Positions 8,792-61,938 of a DNA stretch of 64,000 bases are shown here, piece after piece. The stretch is from an uncultured virus (IMG/VR IMGVR_UViG_3300036715_001702). Its lineage: Duplodnaviria; Heunggongvirae; Uroviricota; Caudoviricetes. Position 1 is the stretch's first letter; every line of letters begins with the position of its first letter. The notes below the pieces were generated by a model. The model worked only from the letters and a program-made list of their open reading frames with translations. It did no database searches and was not told where the DNA came from. A program made the position numbers and the translations under genes. Location: the IMG/VR virus record IMGVR_UViG_3300036715_001702; one strand, given 5' to 3'.

Positions 8792-9229
8792 ATGATAAAT
8801 TTACTAGTTCCTAGAAATATCGAAGGTCGCAAGGAGAAACTGAAGCAGATGAACATTAGGTTACTTTCTCAGGAATTGATAGATGGAGATCTTATACTCG
8901 ATGAATCTTTCATGGACATTGATCCTAAATTTATAAAGTTCAAGAAAGTGAATGGTTGTGTAAGATTGACCGGAGGTCAATGGACAGAAATACCTGTATG
9001 GTTGAAAGATGTAGAAATAACTGGATATTTCGATTGCTCAGAAAATAAATTGACATCATTGAAAAACTGTCCTCAGAAAATAGGAAGAAATTTTTATTGT
9101 TCAGCCAATTTGTTAACATCTCTAGATGGATGCCCTGAAAATATAGGAGGAGATTTTCATTGTTATGATAATAAAGTCAAATTGAAGATTCCAGATTATG
9201 TTAAACTGAAATGTAAATTTTATAATTAA
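8792..9229 (+). CDS. LRR-like 22-aa repeat family paralog 1 (no capsid-targeting N-terminus)
   Basis: LLVPRNIEGRKEKL cap; two LTSL.(G/N)CP..IG..F.C repeats. Confidence 0.9.
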   Translation: MINLLVPRNIEGRKEKLKQMNIRLLSQELIDGDLILDESFMDIDPKFIKFKKVNGCVRLTGGQWTEIPVWLKDVEITGYFDCSENKLTSLKNCPQKIGRNFYCSANLLTSLDGCPENIGGDFHCYDNKVKLKIPDYVKLKCKFYN

Positions 9230-9241
9230 AATCTATAGATC

Positions 9242-9781
9242 ATGAAAAATTCCAAGACATTCGTAGGAAACCTATCGGTAAATGAGAATCTGTTGGTTCC
9301 ACGTAACCTCGAAGGCCGCAAGGAAAAGCTCAAACAGATGAACATAAAGTTGCTTTCTCAGGAATTGATTGATGGAGATCTAAATCTTGATGAATCCTTC
9401 ATGGATATCGATGCTAAGTTTGTAAAGCTCAAGAAAGTGAATGGATTTGTAACTTTGCAAGGTTGTGAATGGACTGAAATTCCTGCATGGCTGAAAGATG
9501 TAGAAATAACTGGAGTTTTTTCTTGTTCATATAATAAATTGACCACATTGAAAAATTGTCCACAGAAGATAGGAGGAAGTTTTAGTTGTTCACATAATAG
9601 CTTAATATCATTAGAAGGATGTCCAAAAACGATAAACAATAATTTTTCATGTAATAATAATCAATTAACATCTTTAGAAGGATGTCCTGAAAACATAGGA
9701 GGAGATTTTTATTGTGTCGGTAACAAAGCTAAATTAGAACTTCCTGATTATGTTAAACTGAAAGGTGAATTTATAAATTAA
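9242..9781 (+). CDS. LRR-like 22-aa repeat family paralog 2
   Basis: Same cap; three repeats. Confidence 0.9.
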   Translation: MKNSKTFVGNLSVNENLLVPRNLEGRKEKLKQMNIKLLSQELIDGDLNLDESFMDIDAKFVKLKKVNGFVTLQGCEWTEIPAWLKDVEITGVFSCSYNKLTTLKNCPQKIGGSFSCSHNSLISLEGCPKTINNNFSCNNNQLTSLEGCPENIGGDFYCVGNKAKLELPDYVKLKGEFIN

Positions 9782-11885: not shown

Positions 11886-12020
11886 AATTCAAAAATTTAA
11901 TAATGCTAGTGAATCTCTGCACTATGCTAATCTTAGCAACTAATCATGAAATAGAAACATATAATAAAAGAAAATTCTTACTAATTTCTAAACCTTACTC
12001 AGAATAAAATTTTAAACCAA

Positions 12021-12220
12021 TTGAACTTTTTTACATTTTTACATTATAAGTTAATAACGAAATGAAAAACTTAAAAAAACATATTAAATGTGAATGCACC
12101 GGTAGCGGTAGTTGCAGGAGAGGGATCCTAGCTTGGGATTTATATTTATATGTATTAAAGAAAAATTAAAATATACTAATATAGATGTCCTAGCAAAAAA
12201 GCTAGGGTATTTTTATTTTA
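12021..12220 (+). promoter_or_regulatory. Attenuator 1: promoter, leader ORF, antiterminator and terminator before the Glu/Asp/Gly/Pro tRNAs
   Basis: TTGAAC-N18-TATAAG; ATG AAA AAC at 12062; ttgggatttatatt can pair with aatatagatgtcctag; terminator gtcctagc-aaaaaa-gctagggt plus T-rich tail. Confidence 0.7.
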
Positions 12221-12242
12221 TTTGAATTTGTAAAAAATATAT

Positions 12243-12326
12243 GTTGCATTAGTCTAGCGGTCCAGGACATCAACCTTTCACGTTGATGAACGAAAGTTCT
12301 CGAGTGTTCGAATCCCTCATGCAATA
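12243..12326 (+). tRNA. tRNA-Glu(TTC) with long variable arm
   Basis: Acceptor GTTGCAT/ATGCAAT; tcaac-ctTTCac-gttga; extra gaac-gaaa-gttc arm; TTCGAAT. Confidence 0.88.
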
Positions 12327-12332
12327 CAAAAA

Positions 12333-12404
12333 GGTTTATTAGTGAAATGGTTATCATCCTACGTCGTCAACGTAGAGTTTACAGTTCAATTCTGTGATAA
12401 ACTA
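12333..12404 (+). tRNA. tRNA-Asp(GTC), atypical C33 and A73
   Basis: GGTTTAT/ATAAACT; ctacg-tcGTCaa-cgtag; TTCAATT. Confidence 0.8.
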
Positions 12405-12417
12405 CAAAAATAAAAAT

Positions 12418-12490
12418 GCGTAAATATATCAGTGGTAGATAGCTTTACTTCCAATAAAGAGGCTGGTGAGTTCGATCCTCCCTTTGCGCT
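12418..12490 (+). tRNA. tRNA-Gly(TCC)
   Basis: GCGTAAA/TTTGCGC, U73; cttta-ctTCCaa-taaag. Confidence 0.85.
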
Positions 12491-12500
12491 TTTTAAATAT

Positions 12501-12586
12501 CAGCAGGTCGCGTAGTTAGGCCTATCGCACTGGATTTGGGATCCAGTTCAGAAATGAAATCTTAGGTTTGAATCCTAATCTGCTGA
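12501..12586 (+). tRNA. tRNA-Pro(TGG) with long variable arm
   Basis: CAGCAGG/TCTGCTG; ctgga-ttTGGga-tccag; ttca-gaaa-tgaa arm. Confidence 0.88.
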
Positions 12587-12611
12587 CAATAAAATAAATA
12601 TTAAAACTGTT

Positions 12612-13082
12612 ATGGAAACTAATATAAGAATAAAAAACAGAACTAAAGAAATCGGAACCAGACATCGTAGAAAACTGAAAAAATATTCAGATAACTTCAA
12701 TCTGATGTTTGAATTCTTTTTAAAATCTTACAGATCAGGATTATTGACATTCAGTGGAAGCTATATCGATGTGAGATATGATAGCAATGGCACTTGTGCG
12801 AAAGAAACTTTTAGGCTTTACGAGGATGGATTTTTCAAGAATAAATCTATTATACATACATCGCAACCAAATATAGTTTATGCAGTACTAAATGGTAAAA
12901 AATCTTGGGGTCTTTGGCTGCAGAACTGGACTGATGGTATATCTGAATGTAACTTTACAAAAGATGAAATTCTTGATCAGTTCAAAGATATAAAAATTCC
13001 AGAATCTTTATTGAAGAACTTTGATGATATTATCTTGAAGAAGAAATTGATTAGATATGAAAGAGATTTTCCAAATTTTTAA
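12612..13082 (+). CDS. Hypothetical protein
   Basis: 156 aa ORF after tRNA cluster 1. Confidence 0.7.
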   Translation: METNIRIKNRTKEIGTRHRRKLKKYSDNFNLMFEFFLKSYRSGLLTFSGSYIDVRYDSNGTCAKETFRLYEDGFFKNKSIIHTSQPNIVYAVLNGKKSWGLWLQNWTDGISECNFTKDEILDQFKDIKIPESLLKNFDDIILKKKLIRYERDFPNF

Positions 13083-13133
13083 CATTTACACTTTAAAAAT
13101 TAAACTCTTTTTATTTTTTTTTATATAATTGAT

Positions 13134-13430
13134 ATGGAAAAAATAAATATTTTAAAAGAATCAGACTTATTGGTAAACCATAGATCAGATGAAAAATCCA
13201 GACAATATGGTCCCTTCTCAGAAGGCATGCGTAGAGCTGCTAAGATCCTCTCTGGTATGAGAGGTAAAGAATTTACAGAAGATGATATGTTTGCAGCAAT
13301 GATTGCATTAAAACTAAGCAGAGAATCTTATACTCATAAGACTGATAACCTATTAGATTGTGTTGCATATCTGGGAGCTTGGAACAATTCTATAGATGAA
13401 AGAACACCTGACATTAATACTACAGAATAA
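13134..13430 (+). CDS. DUF6378-like phage protein
   Basis: RQYGPF...MIALKLSRE...DNLLDCVAY pattern. Confidence 0.6.
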   Translation: MEKINILKESDLLVNHRSDEKSRQYGPFSEGMRRAAKILSGMRGKEFTEDDMFAAMIALKLSRESYTHKTDNLLDCVAYLGAWNNSIDERTPDINTTE

Positions 13431-13586
13431 AAAATAATTAAGTGAAGCACTTAAAAATTTGAATGTATACAAATGTCTACTTATTTTAAATCATGGACTT
13501 TTTTCCAAATCACATGTGTTATTTTTTGTGTAGTAAAAAATAATAAAATTCATAAATTTACAATTTTGAGTAAAATTAAAATAATA

Positions 13587-13760
13587 TTGAACTTTTTAAT
13601 ATATTTGCAGTATAAATTAGTAATGAAAAACATTTTTACATATCAACAGCAATATCAACAGCAACCTAAAGTTGAATGCTATTGTATTGTGTAAAAATAA
13701 ATAAAAATATTTAAACAAAATAAAAAAGCTCAACTCAAAAAGTTGAGCTTTTTTATTTTT
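13587..13760 (+). promoter_or_regulatory. Attenuator 2 before tRNA-Tyr, tRNA-Gln and tyrS
   Basis: TTGAAC-N18-TATAAA; agttgaatgct in the leader can pair with agctcaact; terminator aaaaaagctcaact-caaaa-agttgagctttttt. Confidence 0.85.
13623..13694 (+). CDS. Tyr/Gln-rich leader peptide MKNIFTYQQQYQQQPKVECYCIV
   Basis: tat caa cag caa x2; ATG 6 nt after the -10 box. Confidence 0.85.
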   Translation: MKNIFTYQQQYQQQPKVECYCIV

Positions 13761-13764
13761 GTAT

Positions 13765-13847
13765 GGATACGTAGGTAAGTGGTTAAAACAAGAGCTCTGT
13801 AAAAGCTCCGCCTGCGGGCTTCGAAAGTTCAAATCTTTCCGTATCCT
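13765..13847 (+). tRNA. tRNA-Tyr(GTA), U73
   Basis: GGATACG/CGTATCC; gagct-ctGTAaa-agctc; long variable arm. Confidence 0.9.
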
Positions 13848-13861
13848 CAAAATATAAACTC

Positions 13862-13932
13862 TGGTAGATCGTCTAAGGGGAGGACTCAAATTTTTGACAT
13901 TTGCAATGAAGGTCCGATTCCTTCTCTACCAA
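13862..13932 (+). tRNA. tRNA-Gln(TTG)
   Basis: TGGTAGA/TCTACCA; caaat-ttTTGac-atttg. Confidence 0.88.
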
Positions 13933-13950
13933 CAATTTAAAACAAATAAC

Positions 13951-15355
13951 ATGAAAACTGAAACATTTCCACCGAATTCAATAATACCCAAAGAAAAATC
14001 AAGGGTTAAATTTGGCATAGATCCAACATCAGATAAATTACATCTAGGACATCTTGTTCCATTGAGAATGGTTAAAACACTAAAAGAGATGGGCCATACT
14101 ATCGATATAGTTCTCGGCAGTTTTACAGCGATGCTTGGTGATCCTTCTGGCAAAGACAAAATGAGACCTATGCTTTCAGATACAGAAACAAAAGCTAATG
14201 CTGAATCTATCCTGAGCCAAGTCAAGATGATACTTGGCTCAGACATATATAGTAATGTAAAATATTGAAAAATTATCCAACATTTTTTACTTATTGCTTC
14301 ATAGACACCAGTAACCTAGCATCTCCACGATCTTTTAGAACAGTCTCTTGTTCAGGTTCGGGTTTACTCATCCCTACCGAATATTTCATATTCGCACTTT
14401 TCAGTGCGAAAAATGTATTTTTATTACATTTGTTTTACGTATGAATTTGTAAATTTCATACAACCAACATGTCAATGAACATTAATCAATCAATTAATCA
14501 ATTAATAATAGAGTATATATTATACAAAAATGTTTTAGTTTAAATATTTTTATATAAATTGATATAAAATCAGTTACTTAATATTATACATTTCAATCAT
14601 ACATGGTTCGAGAAGATGTCTATTCCTCAGATGATGGACATAGTTTCTAAATTTAATGTTAATCATCTGTTGTCAAGAGATTCGTTTCAAAACAGAATCA
14701 AAAATAATAACAGTATCGGAATCCATGAACTTCTTGTTCCGATCTTACAAGGTTTGGATTCTGTAGAACTTAAATCAGACATCGAAATCGGAGGAACTGA
14801 TCAACTTTTCAATTTTATGATCAGTAGAGAGATGCAAGAAAAATATGGAATGAAACCAGAGATATGCTTGTTTGCTCCTATTATCAATGGTTTGGATGGC
14901 AGAAAGATGTCTAAATCTTTGAACAATTGTATATTCATCAATGACTCTCCAGAAGATGTTTTCGGTAAAACAATGTCCATCTCTGATGAAACAATGCATG
15001 AATGGGTAGAAGTATTTCTGAAGGATCCAAAAAATTCACATGCTTTTGAACTCAAGAAAGAGTTAGCGTTCTCTATCACAGAAGAAATATGGGGAATATA
15101 TTAGCAATCAAAGCTAAAAATCATTTCAGTTCTGTGATTTCATCTAAAAATACACCAGATGATATTCAAGAGATAGAATTCTCTGACATTATATCCATAA
15201 TTTGTTTGATCAGGAAATCATCAAAGACCGCTGCTAGAAATTTATTGATTTCTAATGCTGTTAAAGTGAATGGAAATGTTGCAACTTTGGAAACTATATT
15301 GAAATCTGGAGATGTGATCAAAGTTGGTAAACTTGATCATGTTAAAATGATATAG
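13951..15355 (+). pseudogene. tyrS: Tyrosyl-tRNA synthetase interrupted by insertion element A and a later frameshift
   Basis: GIDPTSDKLHLGH, GDPSGK, GGTDQLFN, KMSKS, C-terminal S4-like domain; insertion at 14252-14584; frame change near 15100. Confidence 0.92.
14252..14584 (-). mobile_element. 333-bp non-autonomous IS element copy A
   Basis: Near-identical reverse complement of 62533-62865; TATA on both flanks; splits tyrS. Confidence 0.92.
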
Positions 15356-15401
15356 AGTGTATTATCATTTTTTTTTATGATTTTTGATTATATTTGTAAC
15401 C

Positions 15402-16184
15402 ATGCAAGAAAAGTTCTGTCTTATAGAAATTTTGAAATCTGATGAACCATCTCAGTTGCTGGAGATTGCTGACACTATTGGTATATTGAATGAACATCTT
15501 CCTGAACTTATTGCTTTGAAAGGTATTGAAACAATTGATGGCATTTCGCATAAGGATAATTATATACATACTTTACAAGTGTTGAAAAATACATGCATTG
15601 TTTCAAGAGATCCTTATTTGAGATTGGTTGCATTGTTGCATGATATAGGCAAAGCTCCTACTAAGAAATTCGAAAATGGCAAATGGTCATTTACAAATCA
15701 CGAGCTTGTTGGAACTTATATGTTGAAAAAGATATTTGAAAGAAATGATATAAATTTCATACACTTCGACTATGTTGAAAAAATCATTCAATATCACGGC
15801 ATAATCAAAGAACTTACAAAACCTGAAGTGACGGATTCGGCAATCAGAAGAATGTGTACAGATCTTGGATATATGTACAATGATGCTATTTTGTTCTGTA
15901 AATGTGATTCGACTACTTCTAAACCTTGGAAGAAAGAGTTACATATGAATGATCTTTCAAAATTGAAAGACAGAGCCGAAGCAATATTGAAAAATGATAA
16001 AGAGAAAGCATACCGGCCGCCTATAGATGCTCATGATATAATGGCTATGTTTCCAGATAAACCTGCAGGAAAGTGGCTCACTGAGGCCAAAGACATTGTT
16101 GTATTTGCTATAAAGAATGGTATCATAAATGAAAACAAAGAAGAAGCACTAAATTTTATTAAAAATTTCATAAACGATAAATAA
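15402..16184 (+). CDS. HD-domain protein resembling the C-terminal part of CCA-adding enzymes
   Basis: HTLQVL, ALLHDIGK, TDSAIRR; no N-terminal NTase head. Confidence 0.8.
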   Translation: MQEKFCLIEILKSDEPSQLLEIADTIGILNEHLPELIALKGIETIDGISHKDNYIHTLQVLKNTCIVSRDPYLRLVALLHDIGKAPTKKFENGKWSFTNHELVGTYMLKKIFERNDINFIHFDYVEKIIQYHGIIKELTKPEVTDSAIRRMCTDLGYMYNDAILFCKCDSTTSKPWKKELHMNDLSKLKDRAEAILKNDKEKAYRPPIDAHDIMAMFPDKPAGKWLTEAKDIVVFAIKNGIINENKEEALNFIKNFINDK

Positions 16185-28315: not shown

Positions 28316-28397
28316 ATACTATATATTAAATTAAATTGAACTTTTTATATAATTCTAAGTAATATATAGAACTAACAACAACGATCTTTGACTTATT

Positions 28398-28793
28398 GGG
28401 GGTATACGTATCGACAGCGAAACCTGGATTATTAGGTCGCATGCATAGCTAGTTGGAAGCTATTAAAAATCCTAACAAAACAATAATTGGCAATATTACC
28501 AACGAAATCGGCAGCAAGGCTGATATTCTTCATGTTCTTAAAAACAACATGTTGACTGCTAAAACTCAAGAAGCAGAACTTGAGTTAGCAGCATAGGATC
28601 TGAACAATAGTAGGATTCTCCTGTAAATAATGCAAATGTCTTATCTTTTGGTCCATCAAATGGCGAAAGGAAAATAGATGACAACTGGCTATGAAAGTTG
28701 TAGGATTTGCCAAGTTATAAAACTTGGATAAAGCATGTAAATATCAATAAAACTTTTTGTCTGAACGCGGCTTCAAGGCCGCTACCTCCACCA
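28398..28793 (+). ncRNA. ssrA: tmRNA with ~35-aa tag
   Basis: GGGGGTA/TACCTCC-A-CCA with G3.U70; TCGAC in D region; T-arm; tag ORF 28489-28596 ends ELAA*. Confidence 0.92.
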
Positions 28794-60907: not shown

Positions 60908-61132
60908 ATGGCAACTTCATCAACTAAAAAAGCAGCTCCTAAAAAAGCTGCAGCGAAAAAGACTGTCGCAGCGAAAGCTCCAGCAAAAAAAGCAACAACT
61001 AAAGCTGCACCAGCTAAAAAAGCTGCACCAGCTAAAACTACAACAGCTAAAGTTGCACCAGCAAAATCTGCTGCTAAGAAAGCTGTAGTGAAGAAATCAG
61101 CTCCTAAAAAAGAAGCTGCTCGTCCTCAGTAG
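60908..61132 (+). CDS. Histone H1-like Lys/Ala/Pro-rich protein
   Basis: AAPAKK repeats; palindromic terminator at ~61160-61190. Confidence 0.8.
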   Translation: MATSSTKKAAPKKAAAKKTVAAKAPAKKATTKAAPAKKAAPAKTTTAKVAPAKSAAKKAVVKKSAPKKEAARPQ

Positions 61133-61213
61133 TTATAATAAAAATAGTTAAAATAGATAAAAAACTCTAAACATATGTTTAGAGTTTTTTTTGATAAAAT
61201 ATTTTTTATTCAA

Positions 61214-61390
61214 TTGAACTTTTGTATATTTGTAAAGTATAATATAGTAATGAAAAACAATTCAACGATATTGACCTTATGTATGATGCTGATTCTGAAG
61301 ATTGGTACTGGGCTATATATTTGTTAAATGTTAGATAAACATATTTTAATAATAAAAGCTCAGCTCGTAAGGTTGAGTTTTTTTATTTTT
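61214..61390 (+). promoter_or_regulatory. Attenuator 3 before the Leu/Leu/Met/Ile/Cys/Thr tRNAs and leuS
   Basis: TTGAAC-N18-TATAAT; ctgggct in the leader can pair with agctcag; terminator agctcagct-cgtaa-ggttgagtt plus T run. Confidence 0.85.
61250..61327 (+). CDS. Leader peptide MKNNSTILTLCMMLILKIGTGLYIC
   Basis: 11 consecutive T/I/L/C/M codons; ATG 6 nt after the -10 box. Confidence 0.85.
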   Translation: MKNNSTILTLCMMLILKIGTGLYIC

Positions 61391-61394
61391 ATTT

Positions 61395-61468
61395 GCCTCG
61401 TTAGTAGAGTTGGTTCATACTTCAGATTTAGAATCTGAAGATCGCTGGGTCGGAACCGGCACGAGGTA
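61395..61468 (+). tRNA. tRNA-Leu(TAG), short variable loop, atypical T-loop
   Basis: GCCTCGT/ACGAGGT; tcaga-ttTAGaa-tctga; T-loop GTCGGAA. Confidence 0.82.
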
Positions 61469-61475
61469 CAAAAAT

Positions 61476-61548
61476 AGTGCATTGATGCAGTTGGTTGACA
61501 TATTGGACTTAAAATCCAAGTACATCGGATCGTTCCAGATATGCACTA
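61476..61548 (+). tRNA. tRNA-Leu(TAA), short variable loop, atypical T-loop
   Basis: AGTGCAT/ATGCACT; ttgga-ctTAAaa-tccaa; T-loop ATCGTTC. Confidence 0.78.
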
Positions 61549-61560
61549 CAAAATATAAAT

Positions 61561-61632
61561 TGCCATGTAGCTCAGTGATAGAGCAATTCCCTCATAAGGA
61601 ATAGGTCTCGAGTTTAATCCTCGACATGGCGA
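61561..61632 (+). tRNA. tRNA(CAT): elongator Met or Ile2
   Basis: TGCCATG/CATGGCG; attcc-ctCATaa-ggaat. Confidence 0.85.
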
Positions 61633-61642
61633 CAACTAATAT

Positions 61643-61715
61643 AGTCTTATATGTCAGTGGTTAGACGGTCAAACTGATACTTTGAAGGTCGTGTGTTCGA
61701 ATCACACTAAGACTA
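61643..61715 (+). tRNA. tRNA-Ile(GAT)
   Basis: AGTCTTA/TAAGACT; tcaaa-ctGATac-tttga; TTCGAAT. Confidence 0.9.
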
Positions 61716-61726
61716 CTTTTAAAAAT

Positions 61727-61798
61727 GCTCATATGGCCGAGTGACTAGGTCACGATCTGCAAAATCGTTGTACGTTGGTTTGATCCCAACTATGAGCT
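61727..61798 (+). tRNA. tRNA-Cys(GCA)
   Basis: GCTCATA/TATGAGC, U73; acgat-ctGCAaa-atcgt. Confidence 0.88.
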
Positions 61799-61810
61799 CA
61801 AAATAAAAAT

Positions 61811-61882
61811 GCCGATATAGTTCAGTGTTAGAATGTCACATTTGTAATGTGAATGTCCTGGGTTAGATTCCTAGTATCGGCT
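61811..61882 (+). tRNA. tRNA-Thr(TGT)
   Basis: GCCGATA/TATCGGC; tcaca-ttTGTaa-tgtga. Confidence 0.88.
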
Positions 61883-61938
61883 CCGAATACTGATAGTGGC
61901 TCAGATTTTTTCATACATAATAAAAATATTAATTATGT

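What the first reader, a model, noticed from the sequence alone, without database searches (positions are those of the whole stretch)
13587..13951. Attenuator 2: (YQQQ)2 leader before tRNA-Tyr, tRNA-Gln and TyrRS
The leader has eight consecutive Tyr/Gln codons (tat caa cag caa x2) immediately before exactly tRNA-Tyr(GTA) and tRNA-Gln(TTG). A classic 1:2/2:3/3:4 arrangement is visible: agcaatatcaac with gttgaatgct, agttgaatgct with agctcaact, and agctcaact with agttgagct plus a T run.
Basis: partly seen in the sequence, partly recalled or inferred. Interest (0 to 1): 0.9.

Follow-up and report, generated by a model that had tools for sequence, protein, structure and literature searches.

The report
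Codon-sensing attenuators control phage tRNA genes
A huge phage puts a tiny "test" gene, spelled in Tyr and Gln codons and followed by a stop signal for transcription, in front of its tRNA-Tyr and tRNA-Gln genes, so it probably makes these tRNAs only when ribosomes run short of them; relatives do the same for nearly all their tRNAs.

Summary
At 13587-13760 lie a promoter-like motif, a 23-codon ORF (MKNIFTYQQQYQQQPKVECYCIV) and a strong hairpin with a U-run. The U-run ends 4 nt before tRNA-Tyr(GTA). tRNA-Gln(TTG) and a tyrosyl-tRNA synthetase gene follow.

YQQQYQQQ is the only run of five or more Tyr/Gln residues in any frame of the 64-kb window. The antiterminator forms only while a modelled ribosome sits on or before the Tyr/Gln codons.

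The same module precedes the window's other two tRNA clusters. It recurs in distant huge phages (44-57% protein identity), where the leader peptides spell out the downstream tRNA set. Examples are SWSASSYEPSYPAYE before Tyr, Pro, Ser, Trp, Glu and NNNNQQQYQQNNY before Asn, Gln, Tyr. Swapping leaders among 16 families never reached the observed match (0 of 200,000). Cognate leader/terminator pairing beats non-cognate pairing (0 of 100,000).

Best reading (0.85): ribosome-mediated attenuators whose regulated products are tRNA genes, acting as a decoding-capacity feedback. Nine full-text searches found no description. There is no expression evidence. The first module in the window (att1) matches its tRNAs poorly.

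The parts
13587..13616 (+). Promoter-like motif of att2: TTGAAC, an 18-nt spacer, then TATAAA. A TAtaTTTG motif lies inside the spacer at 13600-13607.
   Evidence: Read. The same motif at the same spacing precedes the other two tRNA modules and the tmRNA gene. The transcription start is inferred, not measured.
13623..13694 (+). Leader ORF of att2, MKNIFTYQQQYQQQPKVECYCIV plus stop. It starts 6 nt after the -10-like hexamer and has no Shine-Dalgarno motif.
   Evidence: Only 1 of 45 long ORFs in the window has a Shine-Dalgarno-like motif, so its absence here says nothing. The ATG AAA AAC start is shared by all three modules.
13641..13664 (+). Sensor block: eight consecutive Tyr/Gln codons (TAT CAA CAG CAA, twice).
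   Evidence: It is the only run of 5 or more Y/Q residues in six frames of the window. 9 of 22 leader residues are cognate to the downstream tRNAs, binomial p = 2.1e-5.
13632..13698 (+). The 1:2 hairpin (anti-antiterminator and possible pause hairpin). It holds region 2 when no ribosome is on the leader.
   Evidence: Minimum-free-energy structure of -17.5 kcal/mol; 2 of 200 shuffles fold as well.
13670..13680 (+). Region 2, AGUUGAAUGCU: the 5' strand of the antiterminator and a near copy of the terminator's 3' arm.
   Evidence: It pairs with 13727-13735 when the ribosome A site is at codons 2-13, and not at codon 14 through the stop or without a ribosome. The energy gain from this pairing is -5.3 against -0.6 +/- 1.0 kcal/mol in 200 shuffles, z = -4.6.
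13727..13760 (+). Intrinsic terminator: 5' arm AGCUCAACU 13727-13735, loop 13736-13740, 3' arm AGUUGAGCU 13741-13749, then U6AU5 to 13760. An upstream A-run can lengthen the stem.
   Evidence: The hairpin is -19 to -21.5 kcal/mol. The U-run ends 4 nt before tRNA-Tyr, so the tRNAs can only be made by read-through. The simple scan did not list it.
13765..13848 (+). tRNA-Tyr(GTA), first regulated gene.
   Evidence: ARAGORN; Rfam RF00005 at 50.1 bits.
13862..13933 (+). tRNA-Gln(TTG), second regulated gene.
   Evidence: ARAGORN; Rfam RF00005 at 51.6 bits.
13951..15355 (+). Tyrosyl-tRNA synthetase gene, probably co-transcribed (17 nt after tRNA-Gln). It is in pieces: 13951-14268, 14616-15104 and 15089-15355.
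   Evidence: PF00579 and S4 domain hits and TIGR00234 tyrS. No + strand terminator was listed between 13760 and 14100. The same tRNA-Gln-then-TyrRS junction is present in L047.
12021..12222 (+). Sister module att1: promoter motif 12021-12050, leader ORF 12062-12169, terminator 12183-12212 plus U-run. It precedes tRNA-Glu, Asp, Gly and Pro (12243-12587).
   Evidence: The architecture is the same, but the codon match is weak: 5 of 34, p = 0.9.
61214..61392 (+). Sister module att3: promoter motif 61214-61243, leader ORF 61250-61327 (MKNNSTILTLCMMLILKIGTGLYIC), antiterminator strand CUGGGCU 61308-61314, terminator arm AGCUCAG 61357-61363, U-run. It precedes tRNA-Leu, Leu, Met, Ile, Cys and Thr (61395-61884).
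   Evidence: 16 of 24 leader residues are cognate, p = 2.4e-5. TILTLCMMLIL is the densest C/I/L/M/T 11-mer in six frames of the window, 11 of 11.
28336..28793 (+). Internal comparison: the tmRNA gene has the same promoter motif but no leader ORF and no terminator.

Best explanation
The region is a ribosome-mediated (leader-peptide) transcription attenuator whose regulated products are tRNA genes.

Proposed mechanism for att2:
1. Transcription starts at or just before the AUG of a 23-codon leader ORF.
2. If Tyr and Gln codons are decoded quickly, the ribosome runs on towards the stop codon and covers region 2. If no ribosome loads, region 2 is held in the 1:2 hairpin.
3. In either case the 3:4 terminator forms and transcription ends 4 nt before tRNA-Tyr.
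4. If decoding of UAU, CAA or CAG is slow, because too little charged tRNA-Tyr or tRNA-Gln is available, the ribosome stalls in YQQQYQQQ.
5. Region 1 is then covered and region 2 pairs with the terminator's 5' arm.
6. RNA polymerase reads through into tRNA-Tyr, tRNA-Gln and probably the TyrRS gene.

The output relieves the stall, so this is a negative-feedback loop on decoding capacity.

The same device, with other sensor codons, precedes the window's other two tRNA clusters. In related huge phages it precedes almost the whole tRNA complement.

Shown directly: the sequence anatomy, the match between leader codons and downstream tRNAs, and the specific leader/terminator complementarity. Inferred: the transcription start, translation of the leader, and the direction and size of the response.
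For: 1. Anatomy of att2.
- The order is promoter motif, leader ORF, terminator, tRNAs, with only 4 nt between the U-run and tRNA-Tyr.
- In the footprint model the antiterminator engages 7-9 nt of the terminator arm with the A site at codons 2-13. It engages 0 nt from codon 14 to the stop, and 0 nt with no ribosome.

2. All three tRNA clusters in the window carry the module, and the tmRNA gene with the same promoter does not.

3. Blind survey of the window plus 20 relatives.
- The relatives were L017-L037, with L032 dropped as identical to L031.
- The rule found 29 modules in 16 families among 145 tRNA-cluster starts.
- The leader/tRNA amino-acid match scored 5.23 against 2.83 +/- 0.40 when tRNA sets were permuted among family representatives. 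None of 200,000 permutations reached it. With tight tRNA sets, 1 of 200,000 did.

4. Whole genomes.
- In the complete 642-kb genome LR756502, 7 modules lie upstream of 43 of 46 predicted tRNAs. One example is MTTSFQQQQQQQINRTD before four tRNA-Gln; another is SSRSRSS before Arg, Ser, Arg.
- In a 30-kb stretch of the 735-kb genome LR756501, the leader TPAPAVAFRRGTGTGTGTCVPAG precedes Arg, Thr, Val, Ala, Gly and Pro tRNAs.

5. An independent homologue of att2 was found through TyrRS. In L047 the leader MRFNNNNQQQYQQNNY... plus a terminator precedes three tRNA-Asn, then Gln, Tyr, Gln, TyrRS and Gln. Its antiterminator is -30.3 kcal/mol.

6. Codon level. 123 of 158 informative leader codons are readable by a downstream anticodon under strict wobble. 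For example, three ATA codons sit before tRNA-Ile(TAT).

7. Antiterminator specificity.
- The energy gain from pairing the terminator's 5' arm exceeded dinucleotide shuffles in all 27 modules tested (z from -1.4 to -4.8; p <= 0.05 in 23 of 27).
- Cognate leader/arm pairs average -9.9 kcal/mol against -4.2 for non-cognate pairs. None of 100,000 permutations reached this. The cognate arm ranks first in 9 of 13 families.

8. In most modules the antiterminator stops being available within a few codons after the last cognate codon.
Against: - There is no expression evidence. No RNA run holds the sequence and the transcription start is only inferred.
- att1 has the architecture but not the match: 5 of 34 cognate residues (p = 0.9), no Pro codon, and its cognate arm ranks 6 of 13.
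- att3 has no 1:2 hairpin. When only a 30-nt footprint is masked, its terminator arm finds some upstream partner at every ribosome position, so its switch is not clean thermodynamically.
- For att2 the cognate arm ranks only 3 of 13, because the att3 and F8 arms resemble it.
- Whole-peptide binomial tests are weak for several modules: L017 Glu/Tyr 0.12, Ile/Gly/Ala 0.085, LR756502 Pro/Asp 0.22.
- The blind rule gave no module at 116 of 145 cluster starts. Many of these are gaps inside operons that hold inserted ORFs, but that was not checked case by case.
- Three of the 29 modules look like false positives.
- 12 of 15 TyrRS relatives have no tRNA within 3 kb. Of the 3 that have tRNAs upstream, only L047 showed a Tyr/Gln leader.
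- The simple terminator scan missed the att2 terminator.
- The host is unknown, as is the degree of transcription-translation coupling in it.
Confidence: 0.85

Rival explanations
1. The machinery is the same attenuator, but the limiting signal is amino-acid charging (Tyr or Gln starvation, or aaRS activity) or a fixed infection programme, not tRNA abundance. For example, the leader codons might be ones the host decodes poorly. The module would then be open early and close once phage tRNAs accumulate.
For: - A stalled ribosome cannot tell a missing tRNA from an uncharged one.
- TyrRS follows the tRNAs with no terminator listed in between, both in the window and in L047.
- In E. coli the Phe-tRNA synthetase operon is controlled this way (recalled from knowledge, not from a call).
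Against: - Most modules have only tRNAs downstream.
- 12 of 15 TyrRS relatives lack nearby tRNAs, and a leader was seen in only 1 of the 15. The module therefore tracks tRNA genes rather than synthetase genes.
- Nothing here separates the signals. This is a variant of the best explanation rather than an alternative to it.
Confidence: 0.1
2. The short ORFs encode small functional peptides, or are chance ORFs, and the hairpin is an ordinary leaky terminator. On this view tRNA expression does not depend on leader translation.
For: - Several leaders are hydrophobic (for example LVLLLCLLV) and could pass for small membrane peptides.
- The att1 peptide shows no significant match to its tRNAs.
Against: - Leader composition tracks the downstream tRNA set across 16 families; 0 of 200,000 permutations reached the observed match.
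- The match extends to rare codons such as ATA.
- The Y/Q run is unique in the window.
- Each leader carries a segment complementary to its own terminator arm; 0 of 100,000 permutations reached the observed energy.
- A peptide function would not predict any of these.
Confidence: 0.02
3. The leader is an RNA sensor that binds tRNA directly (T-box-like). Its codons would pair with tRNA anticodons without a ribosome.
For: - The output is tied to tRNA identity.
- T-box elements control tyrS in Firmicutes (recalled, not from a call).
Against: - No T-box or other riboswitch family matched at the gathering threshold in the window, or at E <= 1 in 13400-15400.
- The cognate codons are many, contiguous, in one frame, and bounded by an AUG and a stop codon, with a conserved N-terminal motif M-[KR]-[NT]-x-x-N-I.
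- The antiterminator boundary follows ribosome-footprint geometry.
Confidence: 0.02
4. Translation of the leader acts after transcription. It might control processing or stability of the tRNA precursor, for example access of RNase P or RNase E, rather than termination.
For: The leader and the tRNAs are on one precursor, and tRNA 5' processing must remove the leader.
Against: This does not explain why a canonical hairpin plus U-run and a specific competing helix are conserved in every family.
Confidence: 0.03

Closest known systems
E. coli pheST attenuator (pheM leader peptide). Recalled from knowledge, not from a call.
   Same: - A leader ORF rich in codons for one amino acid is followed by an intrinsic terminator with a competing antiterminator.
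- The regulated product belongs to the decoding machinery (an aminoacyl-tRNA synthetase), as TyrRS does downstream of att2.
   Different: - Here the first regulated genes are the tRNAs themselves.
- The element is phage-borne.
- It has no Shine-Dalgarno motif, and possibly no 5' leader before the AUG.
trp, his and pheA operon attenuators. The pheA scheme was read in passages of PMC3082878. The general principle appears in the abstract of PMC1183508 in the listing.
   Same: - att2 has the full 1:2 / 2:3 / 3:4 layout.
- The regulatory codons lie in region 1 and the stop codon lies close to region 2.
- Termination is the default when no ribosome is loaded.
   Different: - The output is tRNA genes, not amino-acid biosynthetic enzymes, so the loop closes on decoding capacity rather than on amino-acid supply.
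- No Rfam leader family reaches threshold. Thr_leader scores 29.2 against a gathering score of 55 bits, and only on the terminator.
Multivalent attenuators: ilvGMEDA (Ile, Leu, Val codons) and thr (Thr, Ile codons). Recalled, not from a call.
   Same: One leader senses several amino acids at once. att3 does this with Thr/Ile/Leu/Cys/Met, and many relatives do it too.
   Different: - The phage leaders sense up to 13 amino acids (L027).
- The set of sensed amino acids equals the set of tRNA genes downstream and changes with it.
T-box riboswitches upstream of aaRS genes, for example tyrS of Firmicutes. Recalled, not from a call.
   Same: - Both sense tRNA status.
- Both control read-through of a terminator by means of an antiterminator.
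- Both have tRNA-related genes as the output.
   Different: - The T-box binds uncharged tRNA directly through a single specifier codon.
- Here there is a translatable ORF with many cognate codons and no T-box match.
Leaderless polycysteine short ORFs that act as Cys-responsive attenuators in mycobacteria (bioRxiv 10.1101/834739; only the abstract in the listing was seen).
   Same: A short sensor ORF begins at or next to the transcript's 5' end, and runs of one codon report the supply of that amino acid.
   Different: - That system regulates Cys-related operons in a bacterium.
- Here the targets are phage tRNA clusters.
- The leaderless state here is only inferred, from the 6 nt between the -10-like hexamer and the ATG.

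Membership tests
Ribosome-mediated (leader-peptide) transcription attenuator | A short translatable ORF lies between the promoter and the regulated genes. | tested here: met
   A 23-codon ORF at 13623-13694 follows the promoter motif. The ATG AAA AAC start is shared by 3 of 3 modules. Translation itself was not shown.
Ribosome-mediated (leader-peptide) transcription attenuator | Codons cognate to the regulated product are clustered in the leader. | tested here: met
   Eight consecutive Tyr/Gln codons sit before tRNA-Tyr and tRNA-Gln, and the run is unique in six frames. Family-level permutation gave 0 of 200,000. att1 does not meet this feature (5 of 34, p = 0.9).
Ribosome-mediated (leader-peptide) transcription attenuator | An intrinsic terminator lies between the leader ORF and the regulated genes, with no separate promoter after it. 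| tested here: met
   The hairpin is -19 to -21.5 kcal/mol and is followed by U6AU5, which ends 4 nt before tRNA-Tyr. The simple consensus scan did not list it.
Ribosome-mediated (leader-peptide) transcription attenuator | An antiterminator uses the terminator's 5' arm. A ribosome on the sensor codons permits it and a ribosome near the stop codon blocks it. | tested here: met
   For att2 the arm nucleotides engaged are 7-9 at codons 2-13 and 0 afterwards. Pairing is specific against shuffles (z = -4.6) and against non-cognate arms (0 of 100,000). This is a thermodynamic model only.
Ribosome-mediated (leader-peptide) transcription attenuator | A 1:2 hairpin sequesters region 2 when the leader is not translated. 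| tested here: met
   For att2 the hairpin 13632-13698 is -17.5 kcal/mol. att3 does not meet this: its antiterminator forms in the free RNA.
Ribosome-mediated (leader-peptide) transcription attenuator | The regulated genes are amino-acid biosynthesis or aaRS genes (the classical targets). | tested here: not met
   The first regulated genes are tRNAs. A TyrRS gene follows only in att2. This is the point of novelty. The target class is historical and not mechanistic, so the failure does not bear on how the element works.
Ribosome-mediated (leader-peptide) transcription attenuator | Read-through depends on leader translation and on the supply of the cognate charged tRNA. | not testable with these tools
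   No RNA run holds the stretch. This needs a reporter assay or a coupled in-vitro assay.
T-box riboswitch | Conserved T-box sequence and specifier-loop architecture (the Rfam model). | tested here: not met
   No T-box hit at the gathering threshold in the window or at E <= 1 in 13400-15400.
Curated Rfam amino-acid operon leaders (Thr_leader and others) | A score at or above the family's gathering threshold. | tested here: not met
   The best match is Thr_leader at 29.2 bits against a threshold of 55, covering only the terminator at 13707-13757.

The most novel reading that the evidence does not exclude
The largest known phages run essentially their whole tRNA complement through a set of codon-specific attenuators. 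Each tRNA operon carries a leader peptide that acts as a barcode of the tRNAs behind it.

The phage would thereby measure, codon family by codon family, whether the infected cell can still decode. It would make replacement tRNAs, and in att2 also a synthetase, only on demand. Such demand could arise when host tRNAs are scarce for phage codon usage, are degraded during infection, or are cut by anticodon-nuclease defences.

The sensor block evolves in step with gain and loss of tRNA genes, while the N-terminus M-[KR]-[NT]-x-x-N-I and the terminator logic stay fixed.
Probability: 0.6. Interest if true: 0.92.

Novelty: new variant of a known kind. Interest (0 to 1): 0.9.

Why it matters
How phages regulate the many tRNA genes they carry is largely unknown. 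tRNA genes are not among the classical targets of leader-peptide attenuation.

If these modules work as their anatomy says, several things follow:
- They would be the first described case in which transcription of tRNA genes is fed back from the decoding of their own codons. Nine full-text searches and two papers read in passages gave no precedent.
- Huge phages would monitor and correct the host's decoding capacity, which bears on codon-usage mismatch and on tRNA-targeting defence systems.
- Leaders give a sequence-only way to define tRNA operons and to check tRNA identities in uncultivated phages, because the leader lists what follows.
- They provide compact natural sensors for the decoding of chosen codons, and these could be tested directly in coupled transcription-translation systems.

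Tried and rejected
- Own genome: none is held for this window.
- Exact-pattern scan of viral contigs with the promoter-plus-ATGAAAAA motif: 16 loci on short contigs, 0 of 16 with a tRNA. These are unrelated and were dropped.
- The same kind of pattern in LR756502: 0 matches. Relatives use other promoter sequences, and many show TAnnTTTG.
- RNA evidence: no RNA holder is listed.
- Laying contigs of four DNA runs (X1-X4): pieces identical to the window and no informative variants in the attenuator. One contig showed a 3-nt deletion at 13734, at depth 2 of 5.3 in X4.
- Covariation within one family (F8, 7 sequences, alignment A2). By eye the core pairs are nearly invariant, with a single compensatory change (C-G to U-A in L024). 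I did not run the count of structure pairs. I relied instead on shuffles and on cross-family pairing.
- TyrRS-based search for homologues of att2: 15 loci, 12 without tRNAs within 3 kb and only L047 with a Tyr/Gln leader.
- My recollection that E. coli tRNA-Phe genes have a Phe-codon leader was wrong for pheV. About 105 nt separate yqgA from pheV and no such ORF is present.
- Group I/II intron or any Rfam family in the TyrRS insert 14269-14615: none at E <= 1.
- The consensus promoter scan does not discriminate in this 30% G+C DNA: 18 sites against 11.8 +/- 3.3 expected.
- The 11-mer ATTGAACTTTT with up to 1 mismatch is not over-represented: 8 against 10.4 expected. Only the 4 exact copies lie at stable-RNA genes.
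- A script error (a wrong L047 coordinate) was corrected.
Full report
**What is there.** The window is 30% G+C DNA with 12 tRNA genes in three clusters and a tmRNA gene. No whole genome is held for it.

Its only relatives among GenBank phage records are the 642-kb and 735-kb uncultured huge phages LR756501, LR756502 and LR756503. Al-Shayeb et al. 2020 (PMC7162821, passages read) place their genomes above 634 kb in the Mahaphage clade and predict Bacteroidetes hosts. The main text of that paper does not contain 'attenuat' or 'leader'.

**The finding, from 5' to 3'.**
- TTGAAC 13587-13592, an 18-nt spacer, then TATAAA 13611-13616.
- Six nucleotides later, ATG at 13623, opening the ORF MKNIFTYQQQYQQQPKVECYCIV, with its stop codon at 13692-13694.
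- An A+T-rich spacer.
- The hairpin AGCUCAACU-CAAAA-AGUUGAGCU (13727-13749), then U6AU5 to 13760.
- tRNA-Tyr(GTA) from 13765, tRNA-Gln(TTG) from 13862, and from 13951 a tyrosyl-tRNA synthetase gene (PF00579, TIGR00234).

**Is it more than chance?**
- YQQQYQQQ is the only run of five or more Tyr/Gln residues in any of the six frames of the 64-kb window. None of 200 block shuffles gave a run of eight, and 9 gave a run of six or more.
- The leader transcript folds far better than shuffles (z = -8.05).
- The pattern TTGAACTTTT-N-TAWAW-N-ATGAAAAAC occurs three times, at 12021, 13587 and 61214. Each lies in front of one of the three tRNA clusters, and none of 100 shuffles gave three matches.
- The three modules align over the promoter, the first three codons, the spacer and the terminator, but differ in the body of the ORF.
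- The tmRNA gene has the same promoter motif (28336) but no ORF and no terminator. The leader is therefore a feature of the tRNA clusters and not of the promoter.

**The switch in att2.**
- Free RNA forms a 1:2 hairpin (13632-13698, -17.5 kcal/mol) and the terminator.
- I masked a ribosome footprint from 14 nt before the P site to 10 nt after the A-site codon, and cut the RNA before the terminator's 3' arm.
- Region 2 (AGUUGAAUGCU, 13670-13680) then pairs with the terminator's 5' arm (13727-13735) whenever the A site is at codons 2-13, which runs up to the last Gln codon. From codon 14 to the stop no pairing occurs, and none occurs without a ribosome.
- Region 2 is a near copy of the terminator's 3' arm.
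- The energy gained by engaging the arm is -5.3 kcal/mol, against -0.6 +/- 1.0 in 200 dinucleotide shuffles of the upstream segment.
- This is the classical layout. The U-run ends 4 nt before the tRNA, so the tRNAs can only be made by read-through.

**The other two modules in the window.**

att3 (61214-61392):
- It encodes MKNNSTILTLCMMLILKIGTGLYIC ahead of tRNA-Leu(TAG), Leu(TAA), Met, Ile, Cys and Thr.
- TILTLCMMLIL is the densest C/I/L/M/T 11-mer in the whole window, 11 of 11. 16 of 24 leader residues are cognate (p = 2.4e-5).
- Its antiterminator is CUGGGCU (61308-61314) paired with AGCUCAG (61357-63).
- It has no 1:2 hairpin. In the footprint-only model its terminator arm finds weaker partners at every ribosome position.

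att1 (12021-12222):
- It has the same architecture and a long antiterminator.
- Its peptide matches Glu, Asp, Gly and Pro poorly: 5 of 34 residues, p = 0.9.
- I cannot explain this.

**Relatives decide the question.** The 156-residue ORF that lies between the first two clusters retrieved 20 huge-phage loci at 44-56% identity, plus LR756502 at 56.8%. All are rich in tRNAs.

I applied a rule that does not look at tRNA identity:
- a tRNA whose upstream gap is at least 100 nt;
- a hairpin plus T-run of -9 kcal/mol or better within 130 nt upstream;
- the longest ATG ORF of 12-45 codons ending from -12 to 70 nt before that hairpin.

The rule gave 29 modules among 145 cluster starts. L032 was dropped because it is identical to L031. 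I sorted the modules into 16 families by leader similarity.

Examples of leaders and their downstream tRNAs:

| Locus | Leader or sensor | Downstream tRNAs |
|---|---|---|
| L019 | MRNSVLTSWSASSYEPSYPAYE... | Tyr, Pro, Pro, Ser, Trp, Ser, Glu |
| L019 | ...VIIKHIKHVIAK... | Lys, Lys, Ile, Val, Ile |
| L027 | MKQFKHIQSFIMCSKWADERDICMF... | Ala, Ile, Phe, Glu, Asp, three Lys, Trp, Arg, Cys, His, Gln, Ser, Met |
| seven loci (family F8) | ...LVLLLCLLV... | Cys, Val, Leu |
| six loci (family F9) | ...FEFNFDAAEAD... | Asp, Phe, Glu, Ala |

Permuting the tRNA sets among the 16 family representatives never reached the observed match. Three likely false positives and att1 were kept in. The observed score was 5.23 against 2.83 +/- 0.40, with 0 of 200,000 permutations at or above it. 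With only the tightly clustered tRNAs, 1 of 200,000 reached it.

**Whole genomes.**
- The complete LR756502 genome has 46 predicted tRNAs, and seven leader modules lie upstream of 43 of them.
- Its modules include MRTINKHKHFSKLNKWF... before Phe, His, Phe and three Lys; ...SSRSRSS... before Arg, Ser, Arg; and MKTMNLNMNLNTLTVVNNTL... before Asn, Asn, Leu, Val, Ile, Thr and others.
- MTTSFQQQQQQQINRTD precedes four tRNA-Gln.
- The modules beyond the two already found by the rule in L017 (a stretch of this genome) were found by inspecting the same kind of listing, not by the blind rule. Three of the seven have weak whole-peptide statistics (p = 0.085-0.22).
- In LR756501 a leader with TPAPAVAFRRGTGTGTGTCVPAG precedes Arg, Thr, Val, Ala, Gly and Pro tRNAs.

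**A homologue of att2.** A search with the TyrRS N-terminus gave 15 loci. 12 have no tRNA within 3 kb, and near TyrRS no leader was seen in 14 of the 15.

The exception is L047, from a 482-kb contig. It has the leader MRFNNNNQQQYQQNNYSGCVLLFSPVSVD: 13 consecutive Asn, Gln and Tyr codons. A terminator follows, and an antiterminator of -30.3 kcal/mol competes with it. Downstream come three tRNA-Asn, then Gln, Tyr, Gln, then TyrRS 16 nt after the last tRNA, then another tRNA-Gln.

Two points follow. The Tyr/Gln leader has gained Asn codons where Asn tRNAs are present. And the module follows tRNA genes rather than the synthetase gene.

**Codon level and antiterminator specificity.**
- Among leader codons for amino acids with more than two codons, 123 of 158 can be read by a downstream anticodon under strict wobble. 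Examples are three ATA codons before tRNA-Ile(TAT), and TTA, TTG, CTC, CTT and CTA before five Leu isoacceptors. No baseline was computed for this count.
- In most modules the antiterminator remains possible up to the end of the cognate block and stops within a few codons after it.
- The energy gain from engaging the terminator arm exceeded shuffles in all 27 modules tested, with p <= 0.05 in 23 of them. Two modules without a cognate residue were left out.
- I paired every leader with every family's terminator arm, for 13 families with the three likely false positives left out. Cognate pairs averaged -9.9 kcal/mol and non-cognate pairs -4.2. None of 100,000 permutations reached this, and the cognate arm was best in 9 of 13 rows. 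att2 ranked third and att1 sixth.

**Translation signals.**
- Only 1 of 45 long ORFs in the window has a Shine-Dalgarno-like motif. Its absence before the leaders therefore says nothing.
- In att2 and att3 the ATG lies 6 nt after the -10-like hexamer, which suggests a leaderless or nearly leaderless message.
- Many relatives show a TAnnTTTG motif 20-40 nt upstream of the ATG. I recall this as the Bacteroidetes promoter consensus.
- All transcription starts are inferred.

**Interpretation.** The anatomy, the co-variation of leader content with tRNA content, and the specific competing helix fit ribosome-mediated attenuation with tRNA genes as the output. Slow decoding of the sensor codons opens the terminator, and the tRNAs that are then made restore decoding.

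The alternatives fare as follows:
- Chance or peptide function is excluded by the permutation results.
- A T-box-like RNA sensor finds no support.
- An effect on processing does not explain the conserved terminator logic.
- The sequence cannot tell whether the limiting quantity in vivo is tRNA amount or tRNA charging.

**Novelty.** Nine full-text searches gave no description of leader-peptide attenuators in front of tRNA genes, in phages or elsewhere. Only open-access papers and bioRxiv preprints were searched, and supplements were not examined.

The mechanism class is classical and the regulated target and the barcode-like multi-amino-acid leaders are new. I therefore rate it a new variant of a known kind, of high interest. 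Experimental proof is outstanding.

Noticed in passing
window 28336-28793: The tmRNA gene (Rfam, 53 bits) is driven by the same TTGAAC-N18 promoter motif as the three tRNA modules. It has no leader ORF and no terminator.
   Followed up: partly
window 13951-15355: The TyrRS gene is in pieces: 13951-14268 (tyrS profile positions 33-118), 14616-15104 (positions 142-302) and 15089-15355 (S4 domain, in an overlapping frame). The 347-nt insert has no Rfam match at E <= 1. It could be an unrecognised intron, a mobile insert or a pseudogene.
   Followed up: partly
window 12112-12138: In att1 the +2 frame reads Q-E-R-D-P-S-L-G. These are Glu, Asp, Pro and Gly codons, exactly the four tRNAs downstream, while the MKN frame matches them poorly. 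This frame opens only with TTG, directly after a TAG. It may be coincidence or frameshift-dependent sensing; it is unexplained.
   Followed up: no
window 12243-12327 and 12501-12587; many in L018-L037: tRNAs for class I amino acids are 83-91 nt long and have a long variable region, for example tRNA-Glu at 85 nt and tRNA-Pro at 87 nt.
   Followed up: no
L019 1152-1225; L020 14514-14605; L026 7466-7544: Some relatives carry tRNAs with anticodons CTA, TTA or TCA (suppressor type). This hints at stop-codon recoding in part of the clade. No such tRNA lies in the window.
   Followed up: no
L017 4714-5339; L019 3735-3896; L021 5121-5402: ORFs are inserted between tRNA genes of relatives. By eye they look like GIY-YIG and HNH homing endonucleases. 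They split tRNA operons downstream of a single leader.
   Followed up: no
all leader ORFs: Most families share the N-terminus M-[KR]-[NT]-x-x-N-I ahead of an otherwise unrelated sensor block. This suggests a common origin with swapping of the sensor codons.
   Followed up: partly
window 60909-61133: A Lys/Ala/Pro-rich, histone-H1-like ORF with its own terminator lies just upstream of att3.
   Followed up: no
window 15384-16184: An HD-domain protein (PF01966, E = 7.7e-12) lies directly downstream of TyrRS. It may be tRNA-related.
   Followed up: no
window 8792-9229 and 9242-9781: Two tandem paralogous ORFs contain repeats of the form LTSL-GCP-x-I-G-x-F-C.
   Followed up: no
window 12000-14300 in runs X1-X4: Contigs from four DNA runs labelled sediment or microbial-mat metagenome carry pieces identical to the window.
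   Followed up: partly
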